Notes: generated from the sequence alone by a model not told the origin. A DNA stretch of 64,000 bases from Pyrinomonadaceae bacterium (GCA_035563515.1 DATMVE010000059.1:22725-86724), one strand, 5' to 3'; positions 4,238-13,752 are shown, numbered from the stretch's first letter. Translations and numbers: made by a program.

Positions 4238-5377
4238 CTAGTTGATTAGCTGTAGCACGGCTGTGGCTTGTACTTCGGCTGATTGAGCGAGATAGGCTTC
4301 CAAAGCAGACGCGGCACGAAAGACCGTATCATTATCAGCGCGGATATAGCGAAAGACACAGCTAAGGGTGCTGTGTCCGCTCACCCGCATGACAGTAGCG
4401 TGAGGCATCCCGGCCTCAATCATCCGGGTTATGCAAGTCGCCCGGCAATCATGAAAGTGGAAGTCTTCTATTCCGGCCTCGCGGCATATTTTTGTCCACG
4501 CTGTTTTGATTGTCACCTTGACGTTGAAGACATGCGAGTTTTCATCCGTCACATTTTCGCGCCAGCGTAGAAGCCACTCATAAACGCGAATCGTCATAGC
4601 TACAGTCCGGCTCTTCGCGGTCTTCGCGTTGAAGGCCCGGACTGTAATGGTTCGGCTCTCTAAGTCAACGTCTGACCATTTCAGGGTGAACAACTCGCCG
4701 CGCCTTAGCGAGCAATCTAAGGCTATCAAGACCAGCCCTTTAATGTGTGCGCGTTGCGGGTAAGAATCAATGGCGGCTAAAAGCCGCGCTTCTTCAACTC
4801 TCGACAGGATGCGCGTCCGGTGGTTCTCGTCGTTCAGGCTTATTAAGGCGTCACCCTCTGAGAACACGTTTCGCGGCATCCATTGTTCACGAACGGCAAT
4901 CCGAAACATACGCCGCAGTTGTCCAAGTTCCCTGTTGATGGTCGCAATGGTACGCTGCCCGCCCCGACGAGTCGGAGTCTCTAGCCGCATCTTCTTATAG
5001 CTTCGGATTTGGCCGTAAGTAATGGCTTTCAGCTTATGACCACCGAAGTGTTCAACCAGCGGCTTGATTACAGTCCGTGCAGTCACTAGCGAACGCAAAC
5101 CCGAAACCTTCCTTCCGCCGACGTAAGAGGCGGGCTGTAGGTAATGCTCAAGATAATGCTTAGCCAAGTCAGCGAACGTCATGTTCGCGGCGTCTAATTC
5201 TTTAGGCGTTAGAGTCTCCAAGTCGCGGAGTAGCTTTTGAATGATTTTCCGCGCTTCCCCTCTGCTCGCAGCCTTTTTCCAAATGTCTCGTTGCTTTCCG
5301 CTTGCGTCTTTGAACCTCACTCGCGCATAAAGTTTTCCATCCTTCGTAACTATTGAGCCTCTGCGTTCTCTCGGCAT
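4238..5377 (-). CDS. int: Tyrosine recombinase / phage-type integrase
   Basis: 379 aa. Catalytic signature LRRGE (Arg), HDCRATCITRM (HxxR), GHSTLSCVFRYI (His..Tyr). Adjacent to the tRNA half-site. Confidence 0.9.
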   Translation of the reverse strand: MPRERRGSIVTKDGKLYARVRFKDASGKQRDIWKKAASRGEARKIIQKLLRDLETLTPKELDAANMTFADLAKHYLEHYLQPASYVGGRKVSGLRSLVTARTVIKPLVEHFGGHKLKAITYGQIRSYKKMRLETPTRRGGQRTIATINRELGQLRRMFRIAVREQWMPRNVFSEGDALISLNDENHRTRILSRVEEARLLAAIDSYPQRAHIKGLVLIALDCSLRRGELFTLKWSDVDLESRTITVRAFNAKTAKSRTVAMTIRVYEWLLRWRENVTDENSHVFNVKVTIKTAWTKICREAGIEDFHFHDCRATCITRMIEAGMPHATVMRVSGHSTLSCVFRYIRADNDTVFRAASALEAYLAQSAEVQATAVLQLIN

Positions 5378-5400
5378 CGCGCTTCCCTTTCAATGCCGCT

Positions 5401-5433
5401 TCTACCTTTTCATCTACCTTTTCAAAAGGTAGA
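5401..5433. repeat. Direct repeat TCTACCTTTTCA x2 merging into the palindrome TCTACCTTTT-C-AAAAGGTAGA (candidate recombinase arm-type or regulator sites)
   Basis: 5401-5412 and 5413-5424 are identical. 5413-5433 is a perfect 10-1-10 palindrome. Located between the int start codon (5377) and the att junction (5511). Confidence 0.5.
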
Positions 5434-5510
5434 GCGGCTGATTTGACAGAGAAGCGAAAATCTGTAGAATGAAAATGCTTTGAAGGAGTAAGGGTTACGG
5501 TAATTACGAA

Positions 5511-5558
5511 TCCCTTACAAGGAAGAGGTTGGGGGTTCGAATCCCTCCGTGCCTACCA
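5511..5558 (+). other. 3' half of tRNA-Val(TAC), positions 29-76 including CCA. No matching 5' half is present, so this is an att junction remnant.
   Basis: tcc-CTTACAA-gga(ag) anticodon stem-loop, variable loop aggtt, T arm GGGGG-TTCGAAT-CCCTC, acceptor 3' strand cgtgcct, discriminator a, CCA. Upstream sequence has no D arm and no AGGCACG acceptor strand. Confidence 0.75.
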
Positions 5559-5584
5559 AGAAGATTTGAAAATTAGGTTTTCCC

Positions 5585-5666
<82 letters not shown>

Positions 5667-7837: not shown

Positions 7838-7860
7838 GAAGGCGATGAATCATCAGACGG

Positions 7861-7897
7861 GCCGGCGCACTCCGCCAGGGGTGCGCCGGCTTTTCTT
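7861..7897 (+). terminator. Rho-independent terminator
   Basis: gccggcgcac / gtgcgccggc stem followed by ttttctt. Confidence 0.8.
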
Positions 7898-8046
7898 GCG
7901 ACGAACGAGCCTTTTTCGGCCAAAAATCCCTTGAAATATGGCTCAAAAACTAACTGTTGACAAAAAGCGCCGAAACATACTTTACTAGTAAAGTCGTTGG
8001 TTGCCCTGCGGGCAATCACGCGGCAATGATCTTTACAAGACGGTTG

Positions 8047-8156
8047 CACACGATAAAGGCAAACCCGCCGCGAGGTGGGGACGCAAAGCCGTGAGTCTCT
8101 TCGAGGGGCGTTTCATTCGAGCGCCTTTTTGCGAGAGATTGTCTGGTTGCCGAAGG
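8047..8156 (+). promoter_or_regulatory. Candidate c-di-GMP-I (GEMM-I) riboswitch aptamer
   Basis: GGCAAACC (8058-8065), hairpin cgcc-GCGA-ggtg with a GNRA loop, GGGACGCAAAGCC (8078-8090) and GGTTGCCGAAGG (8145-8156) match the conserved GEMM-I blocks as I remember them. GGTTGCC can pair with GGCAA(A)CC to close the aptamer. Confidence 0.6.
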
Positions 8157-8589
8157 CAATTGGAAAGAGCCAGGACTTCAAAACTTTCCACTGCTCCGAC
8201 ATGGGAAGACTTCTCTCCAGCCGCGCTCACTCTCTCACGGGCGGCTTTTGAAGTTGAGGCTGGAATCATTCAACTTTTGCGCCCCTGCTTTGATGATTCC
8301 CTTTTCAATTATCTCCTTCCAAAACTGAACCAGACTAACTGAGAGTTCCTGCGGCCTGAGCCCACGAACGCCTCTGACTCTGCCCGCCCGTGCGGAAATC
8401 GCTTCCGCCGGAGCGCGCCTTGTCCGGGGCCGAAGAGTCTCGGCCGTCAACGTTGCTGCCCGTCAACGCGCTCACGCCAGTAGAGCGCGGCCATGAGAAA
8501 GCGCCCGCGGCCCATGCGGGTCCGCCGCCCATTCGGGCCTCGCTACGAGCGGGGCCGTCAGCCTTACGAAAACCAAAGGAGATAATTTG

Positions 8590-9285
8590 ATGTTCAAGAA
8601 ATGCTTAGTCGCAGCCTTCGCCTTCCTGGCCCTCAGCTCGGTCAACGCCCTCACGGCCAACGCGCAGTCGTCGTGCTTGGACCACGAGACGTTCGGCACG
8701 CGCCCGCTCATGGCGGTCGACAAGAATCTTCAGTCGCAGATCGAAGTCACCTATTTCACCACGGACGACCCGAACGCGTTCATCTCCGAAAAGGCCGGTG
8801 TCAGGCGCAGCGCGAGCTACACGAGCCTGAGCGCCACGCAGTTCGTCGCCAAGCTCGACTCTTTGGAGAAGGCCGGCGTGGCGAGCATCAGGAAGCGCGA
8901 GTCCGCGTCCTCTTTCCTGGGCGAAGTTGCCGAACTGAACCTGGAGCGCAACCTTTCGGGCGCGGAAGGAAGAATGATTAACGCGAGCCACGCTTCGGCG
9001 AGCGCGCTGAGCGGGTTGGACCGGCGGACGGAGATCAACGTCTTCCAGGGCCGCCCCGGCGAGCAGGGCTACTACCGCGTGAGCCTGCTGTCCTGGTTCG
9101 TGGACGCGAGGGCCAACGGCGGCCACCAGACCGTGGACTACGACGCCATCGTGCTGCTCAAGCCCGGCCAGACCGCGGTCTTCAAGCTCATGAGCGACAA
9201 CGAAGCCAAGCGCACGGGCGCGGCGCGCAGCTACGTGGCCGTCACCATGCGCGCGGTCAACAGCGCGAGCCTCGCCCGCCGCTAA
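8590..9285 (+). CDS. Secreted hypothetical protein
   Basis: AAGGAG 8 nt upstream of the ATG at 8590. Signal peptide MFKKCLVAAFAFLALSSVNALTANA. High-GC3 frame. Confidence 0.7.
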   Translation: MFKKCLVAAFAFLALSSVNALTANAQSSCLDHETFGTRPLMAVDKNLQSQIEVTYFTTDDPNAFISEKAGVRRSASYTSLSATQFVAKLDSLEKAGVASIRKRESASSFLGEVAELNLERNLSGAEGRMINASHASASALSGLDRRTEINVFQGRPGEQGYYRVSLLSWFVDARANGGHQTVDYDAIVLLKPGQTAVFKLMSDNEAKRTGAARSYVAVTMRAVNSASLARR

Positions 9286-9349: not shown

Positions 9350-10039
9350 ATGCAGCCGAACAGGAAGAGAACATTTCTTTACGGCCTGCTGGTTAGCTCT
9401 TGCCTCTCCCTGCTGACGTGGGCGGGGCCTGTAAGTTCTGCCGGCGGGCCGGGCGGCGAGGCTGCGATGCCGAAACAGTGCCGGCCGGGAAAGACTGCGA
9501 CCGAAAGTTTCGGCTGGCGCTGGAGGCCGGACGCGCGCGTCAGGCTCTACTACCTGAAGGGCGACTTCGGCGCGGAAGAGGCCGCGGCCCTCGCGCGCGC
9601 CGTCGGCAACTGGAACAACGCCCTGCGAGAGATAAATTCTCAGGTCGTCTTCATCCAGGGCGGCGAACGCGAGGCGGTCGCCGAAGACGACGCGAGCATC
9701 ACGGTCCTGCGCGGCGTGCCCAAGGGGAAAGACCGCCTGGGGCAGTTGAGGCTGTACTCCATGTCGAACGGCGTGATGCGCGCGACCATGATCATCAGCC
9801 CGGCCGTCACGGACCTCGACGCGCTGACGAGCCTGATGGCGCACGAACTCGGGCACTCTCTGGGCCTGGGCGACTGCTACGGCTGCAAGCGCGGCACGAC
9901 CACGATGGCGGCGTTCAAAGACATCAACGAAGGCAACGACGTGTACTCGCCGAGCGAGTGCGACAAGTACGTCGTCGCGCAAGGGTACTCCGGCGGGACG
10001 ACTTCACAGCCGCGACCCGCAACGGCCGAGGGTCGCTGA
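9350..10039 (+). CDS. Secreted zinc metalloprotease (HExxHxxGxxD, snapalysin/matrixin-like)
   Basis: Signal peptide, then motif MAHELGHSLGLGDCYGC. Confidence 0.7.
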   Translation: MQPNRKRTFLYGLLVSSCLSLLTWAGPVSSAGGPGGEAAMPKQCRPGKTATESFGWRWRPDARVRLYYLKGDFGAEEAAALARAVGNWNNALREINSQVVFIQGGEREAVAEDDASITVLRGVPKGKDRLGQLRLYSMSNGVMRATMIISPAVTDLDALTSLMAHELGHSLGLGDCYGCKRGTTTMAAFKDINEGNDVYSPSECDKYVVAQGYSGGTTSQPRPATAEGR

Positions 10040-10081: not shown

Positions 10082-10120
10082 GACGAGGGGCAGGCGGCGG
10101 CTTGCCCCTCGTCCTCTTTT
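10082..10120 (+). terminator. Rho-independent terminator
   Basis: gacgaggggca / tgcccctcgtc stem followed by ctctttt. Confidence 0.75.
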
Positions 10121-10137
10121 GACCTCAAAAATAAGTC

Positions 10138-10167
10138 TTGACGCTGCTACTACAACTGTCGTAGCAT
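10138..10167 (+). promoter_or_regulatory. Sigma-70-like promoter (TTGACG-N18-TAGCAT) with an embedded BlaI/CopY-type operator CTACTACAACTGTCGTAG
   Basis: The operator at 10147-10164 shares 15 of 17 positions with the one at 11247-11263. It contains an ACAnnTGT core and lies in the promoter spacer 40 nt upstream of the TPR gene. Confidence 0.55.
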
Positions 10168-11238: not shown

Positions 11239-11267
11239 TTGACAGCCTACTACAATAGTCGTATTTT
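11239..11267 (+). promoter_or_regulatory. Sigma-70-like promoter (TTGACA-N17-TATTTT) with an embedded operator CTACTACAATAGTCGTA
   Basis: Operator at 11247-11263 lies in the spacer. An extra GTAGTAG half-site sits at 11279-11285. Immediately upstream of the BlaI-like gene. Confidence 0.55.
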
Positions 11268-11303: not shown

Positions 11304-11726
11304 GTGACTAAAGAAAAAACCGTCAGGCTGACGAAGTTCGAACTGGAGCTGATGACCGCCTTGTGGGAGTTGGGCCAAGCTTCCGTCAGGGAGATTCAGG
11401 AGCGGCTTCCAGAGAAGAAGCGGCCCGCCTACACGACCGTCCAGACCATCGTCTACCGCCTCGAAGAGAAAGGGGCCGTGCGCCGCGTCAAGAAGATCGG
11501 CAACGCCCACATCTTCGAGGCGGCCGTCACCAGGCAGTCCACGCACCGCAGGCTGATTAACGAGCTGCTGGACCTGTTCGGCGGCTCGGCGAGGCCGCTG
11601 ATGGCGCACCTGGTGGAGACTGGGAAACTGTCTTTGGAGGACGTGCGCGAGATGGAGAGCGACCTCCTGAAGCAGGACGGCCCTCCCGCGAAAGGCGAGG
11701 GGAACAAAAAGCGGGCCCGGACGTAA
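11304..11726 (+). CDS. BlaI/MecI/CopY-family transcriptional repressor
   Basis: GTG start with GAGGAGGGG upstream. Winged-helix N-terminus LTKFELELMTALWELGQASVREIQERLPEKKRPAYTTVQTIVYRLEEKGAVRR. Confidence 0.85.
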   Translation: MTKEKTVRLTKFELELMTALWELGQASVREIQERLPEKKRPAYTTVQTIVYRLEEKGAVRRVKKIGNAHIFEAAVTRQSTHRRLINELLDLFGGSARPLMAHLVETGKLSLEDVREMESDLLKQDGPPAKGEGNKKRART

Positions 11727-11757
11727 AAGTCTGTGCCGTCAAAAGGAGCAGCGAGCG

Positions 11758-13752
11758 ATGCCTTTCTACGAGCCGTTTGTGGAATGGTCTAGGTGGGGCT
11801 GGCCCCTGCTTGGCAATCACCTCTGGCAAGCGACCCTCTTCTCCCTCTTTGTGCTCATCGTCTGCGCGCCGCTGACGCGCGCCCCCGCCCGCGTGCGCTA
11901 CTCGCTGTGGCTCGTCACCCTCCTGAAGTTCGTCGTGCCGGGCGCGGTCCTGGCCCTGCTCGTCAGGCAGACGGGGATTGACGGACTGTTCGCCCCGGCC
12001 GCAGGCTCGCCCGCGGCCGGGCTGGCGCTCTCGCCTTTTCTCTCTCCGGTGGCGAGCCAGCCCGTGGTGGTCTCCGCGGCCAGGCAGTTCGCGCCGAGCG
12101 GCGAAACCTCTGCGGCCGCCTACGTCGCCGCCGTACATGATCAGGGCCACTGGTACGGCGTGCTCACCCTCGTCTGGCTCGCAGGCTGTGCCATTTTGTT
12201 CGGCTCCTGGCTGAGACAGAGGAGGCTCCTGTCGGCGGCCGTGCGCGCCGGGAGAGTCGCCCGCTGCGGCAGAGAGTTTGAGACCCTTCGGCGCGTCAGT
12301 TCGTGGCTCGGCCTGCGCAGGAAGGTAACGCTCGTGGTTTCGCCGGAGATCGCGGAGCCGGGCGTGTGGCGCACGCTGCGGCCGGTCGTGGTGCTGCCCG
12401 AAGGTGTGGCCGAGCGCCTGAGTGACGACGAACTCGAAGCCGTCATGATGCACGAGATGGTTCACGTTGAGCGTTGGGACAATCTAGTGGGCTTCGTGCA
12501 GCGAACGGTCTGCTGCCTGCTCTGGTTTCACCCGCTCGTCTGGCTACTCGACAGGCGGCTGCTCGCCGAGCGCGAGCAGTCTTGCGACGACACGGTCATC
12601 AGGCTGAGCGGCGACTCGAAGGTTTACGTCTCGGGCATCACGAAGGTCTGCCGGCACAGCATGGGGTGGGAATTGAAGTCCGGCCTCTCCAGCGCGACCG
12701 GCTCCGACCTGAAGAAGAGGCTCAAACGAATCATGGCCGCGGACATCAGCCGGATTCCGTCCGTCCTGCACCGCGCGCTGCTGGGGGCCGTGGTCGCTGT
12801 CCTCTTCGTCCTCTCGGCCGCGTCCGGGATAATCAACGGGGGCAACGCGCCTTCGCAGGACAAGAGTTCGTCGGCGGGCAAAGCCGACCCCCGCTTTATC
12901 GTGGCGGACGCCGAGGCGGCTCCGAGTAAGCACGCCGAGGTTGCCGAAGTAAGGGCTTCGACGGTGCCGCCTCTTCCGCCCCAGGCCGCGCCGCCGCAGG
13001 TAAAAGAAGGCTCGCCCGCGCCGGTCGAAGTCAAGGCCGGGCCTGACCGGCTGGAGCAGATGCCGCCGCCCGAGCAGCAGAGCGGCCCGTCAATCGTCGC
13101 GCTGGTCAATCAACCTAACCAACCCAACGCCACGCCCCTGCCTCCGCAGCCGCCTCAAGAAAGAGAGGCCACACGAGTGTCGGCCGCGTTCATTCCGGCT
13201 TCGATGAACCATGCGGATTTAACGGAGTTCGCCGGCAGGTACGAGGTTGACCCGACGAGGGTAGAGAATTTCATCCTGGACATCACACTCGAACGCGGCG
13301 AGCTGTGGCTCAAGCCGTCGCACGCGTCGAAGCGCAGGCTCCTGCTCGCGCAGGACATGCGCCTGGCCGACACGTACTCCGATTTCGTCTTCTCCGCCCT
13401 GCGCGACAGGGCCGGGCGGGTCGTCGGCCTCAGACTTGATTCCTGGGACAGCAGCATCAGCGCGCGCAAATTGGCCCTCAACCAGCCGAGCCTGCGCGGC
13501 AACGTGACCTTCACACTCAGCGCCCCCCCGAACGCCAGAATAGTCGCCGTCGCCGGCTCCTTCAACAACTGGAACCAGTCGCAATTCCTCTTCGCGCGGG
13601 TCGGCAACGAGTGGGTCTGCAAGATCAACCTCCCGCCGGGAGAGTACGAATACAAGTTCATCATCGACGGCGACTGGCTGCTTGACCCCCTCAACCCGAA
13701 GAAGAGAAACGACGGCCGGGGGCACGTGAATTCGGTCCTCGTCGTCGAGTAG
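11758..13752 (+). CDS. BlaR1/M56-family membrane metalloprotease with a Pro-rich linker and a C-terminal AMPK-beta/CBM48-like glycan-binding domain
   Basis: N-terminal TM helices. HEMVHVERWD (M56 HExxH). C-terminus VAVAGSFNNWNQ...LPPGEYEYKFIIDGDWLLDPLNP closely resembles AMPK1_CBM / E-set modules. Confidence 0.8.
   Translation: MPFYEPFVEWSRWGWPLLGNHLWQATLFSLFVLIVCAPLTRAPARVRYSLWLVTLLKFVVPGAVLALLVRQTGIDGLFAPAAGSPAAGLALSPFLSPVASQPVVVSAARQFAPSGETSAAAYVAAVHDQGHWYGVLTLVWLAGCAILFGSWLRQRRLLSAAVRAGRVARCGREFETLRRVSSWLGLRRKVTLVVSPEIAEPGVWRTLRPVVVLPEGVAERLSDDELEAVMMHEMVHVERWDNLVGFVQRTVCCLLWFHPLVWLLDRRLLAEREQSCDDTVIRLSGDSKVYVSGITKVCRHSMGWELKSGLSSATGSDLKKRLKRIMAADISRIPSVLHRALLGAVVAVLFVLSAASGIINGGNAPSQDKSSSAGKADPRFIVADAEAAPSKHAEVAEVRASTVPPLPPQAAPPQVKEGSPAPVEVKAGPDRLEQMPPPEQQSGPSIVALVNQPNQPNATPLPPQPPQEREATRVSAAFIPASMNHADLTEFAGRYEVDPTRVENFILDITLERGELWLKPSHASKRRLLLAQDMRLADTYSDFVFSALRDRAGRVVGLRLDSWDSSISARKLALNQPSLRGNVTFTLSAPPNARIVAVAGSFNNWNQSQFLFARVGNEWVCKINLPPGEYEYKFIIDGDWLLDPLNPKKRNDGRGHVNSVLVVE

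What the first reader, a model, noticed from the sequence alone, without database searches (positions are those of the whole stretch)
8047..8156. Candidate c-di-GMP-I (GEMM-I) riboswitch ahead of a secreted-protein / metalloprotease pair
Seen in sequence: 8058-8090 reads GGCAAACC-CGCC-GCGA-GGTG-GGGACGCAAAGCC, and 8145-8156 reads GGTTGCCGAAGG. Established knowledge (recalled from memory, not searched): the V. cholerae Vc2 aptamer reads GGGCAAACC-AUUC-GAAA-GAGU-GGGACGCAAAGCC ... GGGGUUACCGAUGG, and clostridial examples end in GGUUGCCGA. The window copy therefore reproduces several features.
- a first hairpin with a GNRA tetraloop (GCGA, 8070-8073)
- the invariant ACGCAAAGC junction
- a 3' strand that can pair with GGCAA(A)CC
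- between them (8091-8144), a plausible long second hairpin (tctcttcg / cgagaga, ggggcg / cgcc)
The element lies in a 750-bp non-coding gap after a terminator (7861-7897). It sits downstream of a TTGACA box (7957-7962) and upstream of the secreted protein gene (8590) and the HExxHxxGxxD protease gene (9350). Caveats: about 430 nt separate the aptamer from the next start codon. I could only find a weak terminator-like stem (8219-8246) as an expression platform.
Basis: partly seen in the sequence, partly recalled or inferred. Interest (0 to 1): 0.6.

Follow-up and report, generated by a model that had tools for sequence, protein, structure and literature searches.

The report
c-di-GMP riboswitch with long leader
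The flagged segment is a genuine, ordinary-class c-di-GMP-sensing riboswitch in a soil Acidobacteriota genome; it sits unusually far (435 bases) from the secreted-protein and protease genes it controls and probably turns their translation off by long-distance RNA pairing.

Summary
Window 8049-8155 (+) passes two Rfam models: c-di-GMP-I (RF01051, 59.1 bits, cut-off 35) and its GGC variant (RF03167, 63.6 bits, cut-off 59). At the one core position where the two consensus lines differ, the window has the canonical A (A8085). I therefore file it as a canonical c-di-GMP-I aptamer, and the RF03167 hit as a cross-hit.

The aptamer is conserved in Pyrinomonadaceae. In 20 fetched loci it lies 341-492 nt upstream of orthologues of the same two-gene operon: an uncharacterised secreted protein and a small HExxHxxGxxD metalloprotease.

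The leader instead holds three complementary elements:
- a 12-nt anti-SD (8307-8318), perfectly complementary to the ribosome-binding region (8576-8587); 0 of 2000 shuffles reach 12 nt
- a module CCUUC-N8-AACCAGAC (8315-8335), complementary to the aptamer's own 3' strand
- that 3' strand itself (8141-8148 and 8152-8156)

Constrained folding of 20 leaders predicts that a stabilised aptamer releases the anti-SD onto the SD, so c-di-GMP would switch translation off. Median SD accessibility falls from 0.34 to 0.07, in the same direction in 18 of 20 leaders. The aptamer identity is near certain. The mechanism and its direction are inferred. This is a new member of a known kind.

The parts
7862..7897 (+). 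Intrinsic terminator of the upstream gene (GCCGGCGCAC / GTGCGCCGGC stem, then TTTTCTT). It isolates the riboswitch transcription unit.
   Evidence: Read directly from the sequence. The 10-nt loop exceeds the loop limit of the scan tool, so one search does not list it.
7957..7962 (+). TTGACA, a -35-like box. The -10 element and the transcription start are not determined.
   Evidence: Invariant in the window and four orthologues, together with its flanking bases. The + strand promoter scan found no full sigma-70 match.
7999..8047 (+). 5' leader hairpins: UUGCCC/GGGCAA (8001-8015) and 'H0' (GCAAU 8023-8027 with GUUGC 8043-8047, inner stem UCUU/AAGA). The 3' strand of H0 (8041-8047) can instead extend P1.
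   Evidence: RNAalifold consensus. H0 pairs in 80% of cells across 31 sequences.
8049..8155 (+). c-di-GMP-I (GEMM-I) aptamer. P1 is C8049-G8155, C8051-G8152 and G8052-C8151. P1a is 8064-8069 with 8074-8079, capped by the GCGA loop. P2 is 8087-8097 with 8137-8148, carrying a variable insertion at 8098-8136. The ligand positions are G8058 (G20), A8085 (A47) and C8150 (C92).
   Evidence: Rfam. (98.6% paired, compensatory changes in P1a). PMC5888326 for the roles of G20, C92 and A47.
8156..8164 (+). Switching segment GCAAUUGGA. It pairs either with 8041-8047 (P1 extension, closing the folded aptamer) or with 8142-8150 (the anti-P1 hairpin 8142-8151/8155-8164 with a GAA loop).
   Evidence: Both alternatives hold up across 31 sequences (96.4% and 95.5% paired). 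The variation consists only of pairing-preserving transitions, A/G opposite U and U/C opposite G.
8141..8156 (+). Aptamer 3' strand used as an 'anti-anti-SD'. GUCUGGUU (8141-8148) and the SD-like GAAGG (8152-8156) are complementary to the downstream module at 8315-8335.
8165..8306 (+). Conserved structured spacer.
   Evidence: The 8219-8246 stem reads AGCCGC/GCGGCU in some leaders and AGCUGC/GCAGCU in others (my reading; not counted with a tool). Its U-tract is not conserved.
8307..8318 (+). Anti-SD AAUUAUCUCCUU, a perfect 12-nt reverse complement of 8576-8587.
   Evidence: 12 nt, reached by 0 of 2000 dinucleotide shuffles (maximum 11); 92.5% of cells paired in 20 leaders, with 2 cells changed on both sides.
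8315..8335 (+). Module CCUUC (8315-8319) - CAAAACUG - AACCAGAC (8328-8335). It pairs with GAAGG (8152-8156) and GUCUGGUU (8141-8148) when the aptamer is not folded.
   Evidence: 97.7% of 260 cells paired in 20 leaders (slid controls 35-59%). RNAalifold picks the 8-bp helix on its own; predicted with probability above 0.5 in the ligand-free ensemble of 13 of 20 leaders (helix A).
8497..8574 (+). Probable decayed remnant of a second (tandem) c-di-GMP-I aptamer next to the SD. It is no longer recognisable as an aptamer in the window.
   Evidence: A profile of six intact second aptamers hits the homologous SD-proximal region in 6 of 20 orthologous leaders (E from 4e-9 to 4e-4), but not the window. 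Rfam finds no second aptamer in the window at E<=10 or in the 20 loci at E<=5. Homology of the window's segment is by position in alignment A3 only.
8576..8592 (+). Shine-Dalgarno AAGGAG (8576-8581), the anti-SD target (8576-8587) and the ATG (8590-8592).
8590..9285 (+). Gene 1: a 231-aa secreted protein of an uncharacterised family seen mainly in Pyrinomonadaceae.
   Evidence: signal peptide. (no Pfam or NCBIfam match). (353 homologues, all named 'hypothetical protein'). (beta-rich model, pLDDT 67; weak secretin-like Foldseek hits, TM 0.28).
9350..10039 (+). Gene 2: a 229-aa metzincin-like zinc metalloprotease (HELGHSLGLGD, then a possible Met-turn TTTMAAF). It has an N-terminal signal sequence and a possible lipobox (VSSC).
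   Evidence: (acutolysin-C, E=0.04, aligned over the motif region). (weak metzincin and M6 hits).
10082..10122 (+). Intrinsic terminator that ends the two-gene operon (14-bp stem, 10 G-C pairs, then CTCTTTTGAC).
   Evidence: A promoter-like site for the next gene follows at 10138-10167.

Best explanation
Window 8049-8155 is a canonical c-di-GMP-I (GEMM-I) riboswitch aptamer. It lies in the 5' leader of a two-gene operon: a secreted protein of unknown function (8590-9285) and a small metzincin-like metalloprotease (9350-10039).

I propose that it controls translation over a long distance, as an OFF switch.

Without c-di-GMP, the aptamer's 3' strand pairs with a conserved module about 170 nt downstream. 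GUCUGGUU (8141-8148) pairs with AACCAGAC (8328-8335), and the SD-like GAAGG (8152-8156) pairs with CCUUC (8315-8319). This occupies the core of the anti-SD (8307-8318) and leaves the ribosome-binding site (8576-8587) accessible.

With c-di-GMP bound, the aptamer, closed by an extended P1 (8041-8047 with 8156-8162), holds its own 3' strand. The module is released, the 12-nt anti-SD pairs with the SD region, and initiation is blocked.

Shown: the aptamer's identity, its conservation and covariation, the complementarities and their conservation, and the operon limits. Inferred: ligand binding itself, the direction of the switch (OFF), and translation as the regulated step. The confidence given is for the whole statement. 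Taken separately, I put aptamer identity at about 0.95, translational control through the anti-SD at about 0.6, and the OFF direction at about 0.55.
For: Identity.
- RF01051 gives 59.1 bits against a cut-off of 35, and RF03167 gives 63.6 bits.
- The canonical G, A and C sit at the three ligand positions (their roles per PMC5888326).
- 98.6% of cells pair, and four P1a pairs change on both sides, across 31 relatives.
- The genome has 16 GGDEF-domain matches.
- Its four other c-di-GMP-I aptamers lie upstream of a pilM gene, an S8 subtilase gene and, as a tandem pair, one secreted-protein gene.

Conservation of the layout.
- In 20 loci the aptamer lies 341-492 nt upstream of a P0001 orthologue, and 18 of them also show a P0002 orthologue behind it.
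- BLAST matches to the aptamer were found in 150 of 301 genomes and 43 of 60 genera of the family.

Platform.
- The 12-nt perfect anti-SD:SD complement is reached by 0 of 2000 shuffles.
- Anti-SD:SD pairs in 92.5% of cells in 20 leaders, against 51-61% when slid, with 2 cells changed on both sides.
- The aptamer 3' strand pairs with the module in 97.7% of cells, against 35-59% when slid.
- RNAalifold picks the 8-bp helix on its own.

Constrained versus unconstrained partition functions (for 9 orthologues).
- SD unpaired probability is higher without the aptamer constraint in 18 of 20 leaders (median 0.34 against 0.07).
- Anti-SD:SD pairing rises by more than 0.2 in 14 of 20.
- In the window itself the effect is modest: 0.36 to 0.22 and 0.14 to 0.33.

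A strong terminator at 10082-10113 bounds the operon.

Against:
- One strand of each long-range helix is invariant (aptamer core, SD). Support therefore comes from conserved complementarity and wobble-preserving changes, with almost no double-sided covariation (0 pairs, 2 cells).
- Equilibrium folding of 500-660-nt RNAs is unreliable.
- The computed cost of enforcing the aptamer (10-21 kcal/mol) is at or above what ligand binding could plausibly pay (my recollection of c-di-GMP affinities, not checked here).
- The window's own predicted effect is weak.
- A local anti-P1 hairpin (8142-8151 with 8155-8164; 95.5% paired) competes with the long-range helix. If it dominates, the ligand-free state would also leave the anti-SD free.
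- 5 or 6 of the 20 leaders (for example L015, L018, L021, L023, L038) show no predicted shift.
- The conserved spacer at 8165-8306 has no specific role in the model.
Confidence: 0.55

Rival explanations
1. Same aptamer and same elements, but an ON switch: c-di-GMP binding exposes the SD. This could happen if the local anti-P1 hairpin, not the long-range helix, is the ligand-free fold, leaving the anti-SD on the SD until ligand-induced refolding recruits it elsewhere.
For: The anti-P1 hairpin is conserved (95.5% paired) and is the minimum-free-energy fold of the window's ligand-free leader. In other organisms class I and II c-di-GMP riboswitches work in either direction (PMC6366702).
Against: No conserved partner that would capture the anti-SD in the ligand-bound state was found. 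My candidate UUGGAAAGAG:CUCCUUCCAA drops to about 5 bp in L015-L018. In 18 of 20 leaders, enforcing the aptamer lowers SD accessibility rather than raising it.
Confidence: 0.17
2. The riboswitch acts mainly on transcription: premature termination within the leader, either intrinsic (hairpins 8219-8246 or 8262-8300) or Rho-dependent at the C/U-rich, G-poor stretch 8296-8335. The anti-SD-like tract would then be a rut-like site.
For: The leader is long and untranslated. It holds conserved hairpins followed by pyrimidine-rich sequence. Long expression platforms with terminators are known for a class I c-di-GMP riboswitch (Bc1, PMC11218506).
Against: The U-tract after 8246 is at most 4 U and is missing or interrupted in at least 7 of 20 leaders (for example CCUCCG in L014). 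The tract after 8300 is mixed C and U, not a U-run. The terminator scan lists neither hairpin. A 12-nt perfect complement to the SD (0 of 2000 shuffles) is not explained by a rut site. Rho action secondary to blocked translation is compatible with the main model.
Confidence: 0.15
3. It is a member of the c-di-GMP-I-GGC variant class (RF03167), or a c-AMP-GMP (GEMM-Ib) switch, and senses a ligand other than c-di-GMP.
For: RF03167 is the top-scoring family and exceeds its gathering score (63.6 against 59). The same holds for most relatives.
Against: The only core difference between the two consensus lines is ACGC[G]AA (RF03167) against ACGC[A]AA (RF01051). The window and all 31 relatives have A. 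The G20-equivalent position is G, not the A that I recall as typical of c-AMP-GMP variants. RF01051 is passed by 24 bits.
Confidence: 0.04
4. The aptamer is a decayed or non-regulatory remnant.
For: A riboswitch that binds its ligand yet does not regulate has been reported (Bc1, PMC11218506). A second aptamer in this same leader appears to have decayed.
Against: The core is invariant, with compensatory stem changes, across many genera, and its position before the same operon is fixed.
Confidence: 0.03

Closest known systems
c-di-GMP-I riboswitch (GEMM-I; Rfam RF01051; Vibrio cholerae Vc2 as the structural reference)
   Same: Same two-hairpin aptamer architecture with a GNRA-capped first hairpin. 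Same conserved core (GGCAAAC, ACGCAAAGC, UGCCGA). Same ligand-contacting G20, A47 and C92 equivalents. Same typical gene context of secreted, surface and pilus genes.
   Different: P1 is extended by a conserved 7-bp helix. P2 carries a variable 39-nt insertion. The start codon is 435 nt away, and the apparent platform works through pairings that span about 170 and 260 nt.
c-di-GMP-I-GGC variant (Rfam RF03167)
   Same: Highest bit score. Near-identical flanks, including the modelled P1 (cacg...cgaag).
   Different: The variant-defining G (model position 37, the A47 equivalent) is A here and in all 31 relatives examined, so the hit is a cross-hit.
C. difficile class I riboswitch upstream of zmpI (PPEP-1 / CD2830) (PMC6366702)
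   Same: A class I c-di-GMP riboswitch in the mRNA of a secreted zinc metalloprotease. That mRNA is negatively regulated by c-di-GMP, the direction predicted here.
   Different: Unrelated protease family and a different phylum. The paper passage read here does not give the mechanism of that switch. Here a long-range anti-SD is inferred.
Bc1 c-di-GMP-I riboswitch of Bacillus thuringiensis, with a long expression platform (PMC11218506)
   Same: A class I aptamer followed by an unusually long, multi-element expression platform.
   Different: Bc1 uses two intrinsic terminators. No conserved terminator is present here.
Tandem c-di-GMP-I riboswitches (for example Bc3-5, PMC4759541; reviewed in PMC9481103)
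   Same: In the same genome and family, paralogous leaders (L002, L028, L032, L036, L037, L039) carry two intact aptamers about 400-470 nt apart. The window's leader seems to derive from such an arrangement.
   Different: In the window only the first aptamer is intact. The SD-proximal one is no longer detectable.

Membership tests
c-di-GMP-I riboswitch (RF01051) | Covariance-model score at or above the curated gathering score | tested here: met
   59.1 bits against 35; E=1.2e-10 for the whole genome.
c-di-GMP-I riboswitch (RF01051) | Ligand-contacting nucleotides G20, A47 and C92 (Vc2 numbering) | tested here: met
   G8058, A8085 and C8150, read from the cmscan alignments. Roles of these residues per PMC5888326. 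The mapping onto Vc2 numbering is partly from memory.
c-di-GMP-I riboswitch (RF01051) | Secondary structure (P1, P1a with GNRA loop, P2) supported by covariation | tested here: met
   98.6% of cells paired across 31 sequences. Four of six P1a pairs change on both sides, in 17 cells; 0 of 500 shuffles reach that number of cells.
c-di-GMP-I riboswitch (RF01051) | Binds c-di-GMP selectively | not testable with these tools
   Needs in-line probing, ITC or SHAPE with the ligand.
c-di-GMP-I riboswitch (RF01051) | The host makes c-di-GMP, and the element lies in a 5' leader of a plausible target gene | tested here: met
   16 GGDEF matches in the genome. The element lies between a terminator and a conserved operon.
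c-di-GMP-I-GGC variant (RF03167) | Score at or above the gathering score | tested here: met
   63.6 bits against 59.
c-di-GMP-I-GGC variant (RF03167) | G in place of A47 (consensus ACGCGAA) | tested here: not met
   The window reads ACGCAAA (A8085), and so do all 31 relatives. That 'GGC' names positions 20, 47 and 92 is my recollection; the defining paper was not held. The consensus comparison agrees with it.
c-AMP-GMP riboswitch (GEMM-Ib) | A at position 20 (from memory) | tested here: not met
   G8058.
c-di-GMP-II riboswitch (RF01786) | Covariance-model match | tested here: not met
   No RF01786 match is listed at E<=10 over 7850-8650. If the two classes share a clan, an overlapping weaker match would have been hidden under the RF03167 hit.
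Translational (SD-sequestering) riboswitch platform | An anti-SD complementary to the SD, with ligand-dependent alternative pairing | tested here: inconclusive
   The complementarity and its conservation are shown. Ligand dependence is only predicted by constrained folding.
Transcription-terminating riboswitch platform | A conserved intrinsic terminator (G+C-rich stem plus U-run) between aptamer and ORF | tested here: not met
   The scan lists no terminator-like site between the aptamer's end (8155) and the ORF; its single hit (8095-8109) lies inside the aptamer's P2. The U-tract after 8246 is not conserved.

The most novel reading that the evidence does not exclude
The roughly 435-nt leader is a conserved long-range relay platform that evolved from a tandem riboswitch. 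The intact upstream aptamer lends its own 3' strand, including an SD-mimic GAAGG, as an anti-anti-SD to a module about 170 nt away. That module's anti-SD acts on an SD a further 260 nt downstream, next to the decayed second aptamer. This would be a family-wide way in which one aptamer controls translation over hundreds of nucleotides. Its target would be an unstudied pair of a secretin-like secreted protein and a mini-metzincin.
Probability: 0.4. Interest if true: 0.45.

Novelty: new member of a known kind. Interest (0 to 1): 0.33.

Why it matters
It adds a confidently identified c-di-GMP-I riboswitch regulon to Pyrinomonadaceae, an almost unstudied group of soil Acidobacteriota. In this genome the regulon covers a secreted-protein and metalloprotease operon, a second secreted protein behind tandem aptamers, a pilM gene and a subtilase gene.

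It also flags a practical annotation problem. Rfam's c-di-GMP-I-GGC model outscores the parent model on canonical aptamers of this family, so automatic annotation would label them as a variant of unknown ligand.

If the long-range anti-SD relay is real, it is a clear and testable example of riboswitch control of translation across several hundred nucleotides, and of a tandem riboswitch decaying to a single sensor. It would also suggest that high c-di-GMP shuts off a secreted protease, as in C. difficile.

Tried and rejected
1. The stem is conserved, but the U-tract is not and the scan does not list it. Rejected as the expression platform.

2. My first anti-anti-SD idea, UUGGAAAGAG (8160-8169) with CUCCUUCCAA. 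Its pairing falls to about 5 bp in L015-L018. I replaced it with GAAGG:CCUUC plus GUCUGGUU:AACCAGAC, which the folding itself pointed to.

3. A second intact aptamer in the window's leader. None was found in the window at E<=10, nor in the 20 orthologous loci at E<=5. Only a sequence-profile trace remains, in 6 of 20 relatives.

4. A coding function for the leader. ORFs at 8001-8342 and 8390-8590, and several on the minus strand, exist. They lie across regions with non-triplet indels and an ~80-nt deletion in L013 and L014. Rejected.

5. Function of P0001. There is no Pfam, NCBIfam or PDB sequence match. The AlphaFold model is of moderate quality, and its secretin hits have a TM-score of only 0.28. 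I keep this as a weak lead, not a call.

7. The paper defining the GGC variant (Weinberg et al. 2017, PNAS) is not held. The meaning of 'GGC' rests on memory and on comparing the two consensus lines.

Full report
**1. Observation**

A cmscan of the whole window against Rfam 15 returns one riboswitch hit, at 8049-8155 on the + strand: RF03167 (c-di-GMP-I-GGC), 63.6 bits against a gathering score of 59, E=1.1e-12. A genome-wide search with the parent family RF01051 (c-di-GMP-I) returns the same site (G000:C59:30772-30878, which is window 8048-8154) at 59.1 bits against a gathering score of 35. A permissive scan of 7850-8650 lists no c-di-GMP-II match and no second aptamer at E<=10.

**2. Canonical class or GGC variant?**

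The consensus lines of the two models, printed, differ in the conserved core at one position only. RF03167 reads ACGC-G-AAgC and RF01051 reads ACGC-A-AAgC. The window reads ACGCAAAGCC, with A8085 at that position.

In the Vc2 structure, G20 contacts one guanine of the ligand and C92 pairs with the other. The backbone phosphate of A47 contacts a ligand 2'-hydroxyl (PMC5888326). That A47 also stacks between the two bases is my recollection. The equivalents here are G8058, A8085 and C8150, which is the canonical G/A/C triad.

That "GGC" stands for these three positions is my recollection; the defining paper was not held. The recollection fits the RF03167 consensus.

All 31 related aptamers aligned also have A at this position, yet most of them top-score on RF03167. 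I conclude that the element is a canonical c-di-GMP-I aptamer. RF03167 cross-hits this lineage because its flanks, including the modelled P1, resemble it. A c-AMP-GMP variant, which as I recall has A at position 20, is not indicated, since that position is G.

**3. Conservation and covariation**

The organism belongs to Acidobacteriota, family Pyrinomonadaceae, according to the record titles of the nearest loci.

A BLAST of window 8040-8350 against 301 genomes of the family found the aptamer in 150 genomes and 43 of 60 genera. On 31 aligned copies, the aptamer structure plus a P1 extension pairs in 98.6% of cells (slid controls 17-53%). Four of the six P1a pairs change on both sides, in 17 cells; 0 of 500 shuffles reach that number of cells.

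It is absent from L013 and L014.

**4. Genes controlled**

*Gene 1 (8590-9285).*
- It encodes a 231-aa protein with a signal peptide.
- It has no Pfam, NCBIfam or PDB sequence match.
- It has 353 homologues, all named "hypothetical protein"; the few that carry an organism name are from Pyrinomonadaceae.
- An AlphaFold model (pLDDT 67, pTM 0.65) is beta-rich with long strands.
- Its best Foldseek matches are secretins (InvG, PilQ, GspD) at probability 0.97 but a TM-score of only 0.28. This is a weak lead only.

*Gene 2 (9350-10039).*
- It encodes a 229-aa protein with an N-terminal signal sequence, the motif HELGHSLGLGD and a possible Met-turn.
- It aligns weakly with the adamalysin acutolysin-C over the motif region (E=0.04). 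I read it as a small metzincin-like zinc protease.

*Operon limits.* A 14-bp G+C-rich terminator at 10082-10113 follows gene 2. A promoter-like site for the TPR gene follows at 10138-10167. The regulated unit is therefore these two genes.

*Conservation of the pair.* By tblastn, 20 fetched loci have the gene 1 orthologue 341-492 nt downstream of the aptamer. Eighteen of them also show the protease orthologue behind it; the other two loci end too early to tell.

*Other aptamers in the genome.* The genome has 16 GGDEF-domain matches and four more c-di-GMP-I aptamers:
- one upstream of a pilM gene
- one upstream of an S8 subtilase gene
- a tandem pair upstream of another secreted protein (P0003)

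This is the classic GEMM gene context.

**5. The leader**

The proposed terminator at 8219-8246 is a conserved hairpin. Its stem reads AGCCGC/GCGGCU in some leaders and AGCUGC/GCAGCU in others (my reading). Its U-tract is at most four U and is missing or interrupted in at least 7 of the 20 leaders. The scan tool lists no terminator-like site between the aptamer's end and the ORF. I reject it as the platform.

Three other features stand out.

(a) AAUUAUCUCCUU (8307-8318) is a perfect 12-nt reverse complement of AAGGAGAUAAUU (8576-8587), which contains the SD. The ATG is at 8590. None of 2000 dinucleotide shuffles of the leader reaches 12 nt; the maximum is 11. Across 20 leaders this pairing holds in 92.5% of cells (slid 51-61%), with two cells changed on both sides.

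(b) Overlapping and following the anti-SD lies the module CCUUC (8315-8319)-N8-AACCAGAC (8328-8335). It is complementary to the aptamer's own 3' strand, GUCUGGUU (8141-8148, the 3' strand of P2) and GAAGG (8152-8156, the 3' strand of P1, an SD-like sequence). These 13 pairs hold in 97.7% of 260 cells across 20 leaders (slid 35-59%). The changes on the variable side are mostly wobble-preserving. RNAalifold run on the same alignment without guidance returns the 8-bp helix.

(c) Just 3' of the aptamer, GCAAUUG (8156-8162) can pair with either of two partners. One is GGUUGC upstream (8041-8047), giving a 7-bp P1 extension that closes the aptamer. The other is the aptamer's 3' strand, giving the anti-P1 hairpin 8142-8151/8155-8164. 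Both hold up across 31 sequences (96.4% and 95.5%). Variation is restricted to A/G opposite U and U/C opposite G.

**6. Mechanism**

I compared partition functions of the whole leader with and without the aptamer pairs enforced.

In 9 close orthologues, the unconstrained ensemble of most leaders pairs AACCAGAC with the aptamer 3' strand and pairs the anti-SD with GAAGGCAA. In the constrained ensemble the anti-SD pairs with the SD.

Across all 20 leaders:
- SD unpaired probability is higher without the constraint in 18 of 20 (median 0.34 against 0.07).
- Anti-SD:SD pairing rises by more than 0.2 in 14 of 20.

The most economical reading is a translational OFF switch. Ligand-free RNA ties up the anti-SD with the aptamer's own 3' strand. 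Ligand-bound RNA keeps that strand inside the aptamer and lets the anti-SD close the ribosome-binding site.

This direction matches the one characterised protease precedent I could find. [quoted passage not shown]

Several cautions apply.
- The effect in the window itself is modest (0.36 to 0.22).
- Five or six leaders show no shift.
- The local anti-P1 hairpin competes with the long-range helix.
- The enforcing cost (10-21 kcal/mol) is large.
- Folding of RNAs of about 600 nt is unreliable.
- The invariant strands preclude real covariation tests.

I put aptamer identity at about 0.95, translational control via the anti-SD at about 0.6, and the OFF direction at about 0.55 overall.

**7. A decayed second aptamer**

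Paralogous leaders upstream of P0003-type genes carry two intact aptamers about 400-470 nt apart, with the second one abutting the SD. They occur in this genome (L002) and in relatives (L028, L032, L036, L037). L039 has the same tandem pair, although its downstream gene gave no P0003 match.

A sequence profile of six such second aptamers hits the SD-proximal part of 6 of the 20 P0001-type leaders, with E from 4e-9 to 4e-4. Rfam no longer recognises an aptamer there.

The window's homologous stretch (about 8497-8574) is too diverged to be hit. By eye its 3' end (GUCAGCCUUACGAAAACC) still resembles the aptamer 3' strand GUCCGGUUACCGAA. The leader therefore probably descends from a tandem riboswitch whose second sensor decayed.

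**8. Verdict**

This is a real, canonical c-di-GMP-I riboswitch and a new member of a known class. The parts of interest are a conserved, unusually long leader with an inferred long-range anti-SD relay, a decayed tandem partner, and an Rfam cross-annotation pitfall. Interest is moderate to low for the class call, and moderate for the platform if it is verified.

Noticed in passing
G000:C118:176349-176861 (L002 1501-1612 and 1918-2013): Tandem pair of intact c-di-GMP-I aptamers 417 nt apart, upstream of a secreted protein with no family match (P0003). The first aptamer is a close paralogue of the window's. Relatives L028, L032, L036 and L037 have the same tandem layout before P0003 orthologues; L039 has the tandem pair too, but no P0003 match downstream.
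   Followed up: partly
window 8049-8155 and loci L006-L039: Rfam RF03167 (c-di-GMP-I-GGC) outscores RF01051 on most canonical aptamers of this family (A at the variant position) and exceeds its own gathering score. Automatic annotation would mislabel them as the variant class.
   Followed up: yes
window 8497-8574; L016, L022, L024, L026, L029, L031 (SD-proximal leader): The SD-proximal part of the P0001-type leaders is homologous to the second aptamer of the tandem leaders (nhmmer E from 4e-9 to 4e-4 in 6 of 20), but Rfam no longer detects it. It is an apparent pseudo-aptamer.
   Followed up: partly
G000:C90:28923-29013 (L003) and G000:C52:111350-111442 (L005): Two further c-di-GMP-I aptamers in this genome. 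One is about 300 nt upstream of a pilM gene (type IV pilus assembly). The other is about 80 nt upstream of a gene encoding an S8 subtilase.
   Followed up: partly
window 8590-9285: P0001 belongs to a family of 353 'hypothetical' proteins seen mainly in Pyrinomonadaceae. Its moderate-confidence model is beta-rich, and its best structural matches are secretins (InvG, PilQ, GspD; probability 0.97, TM-score 0.28). It might be an outer-membrane partner of the adjacent protease, but this is very uncertain.
   Followed up: partly
window 11304-13752: A BlaI-type repressor gene (PF03965, 11304-11726) is followed by a gene for a BlaR1/M56 protease that ends in a CBM48/AMPK-beta-like domain (11758-13752). 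Promoter-like sites at 10138-10167 and 11239-11267 precede the TPR gene and the repressor gene.
   Followed up: partly
window 4238-5661: A phage-type integrase gene (4238-5377, minus strand) lies next to a tRNA gene (5588-5661), which suggests the edge of an integrated element.
   Followed up: no
L017 1323-1369; L021 1849-1922; L026 1207-1280: In relatives, the region just upstream of the riboswitch holds an Acido-Lenti-1 RNA match (42.4 bits, cut-off 37) or a tRNA gene. The riboswitch operon may therefore sit at a recurrent tRNA-adjacent position.
   Followed up: no
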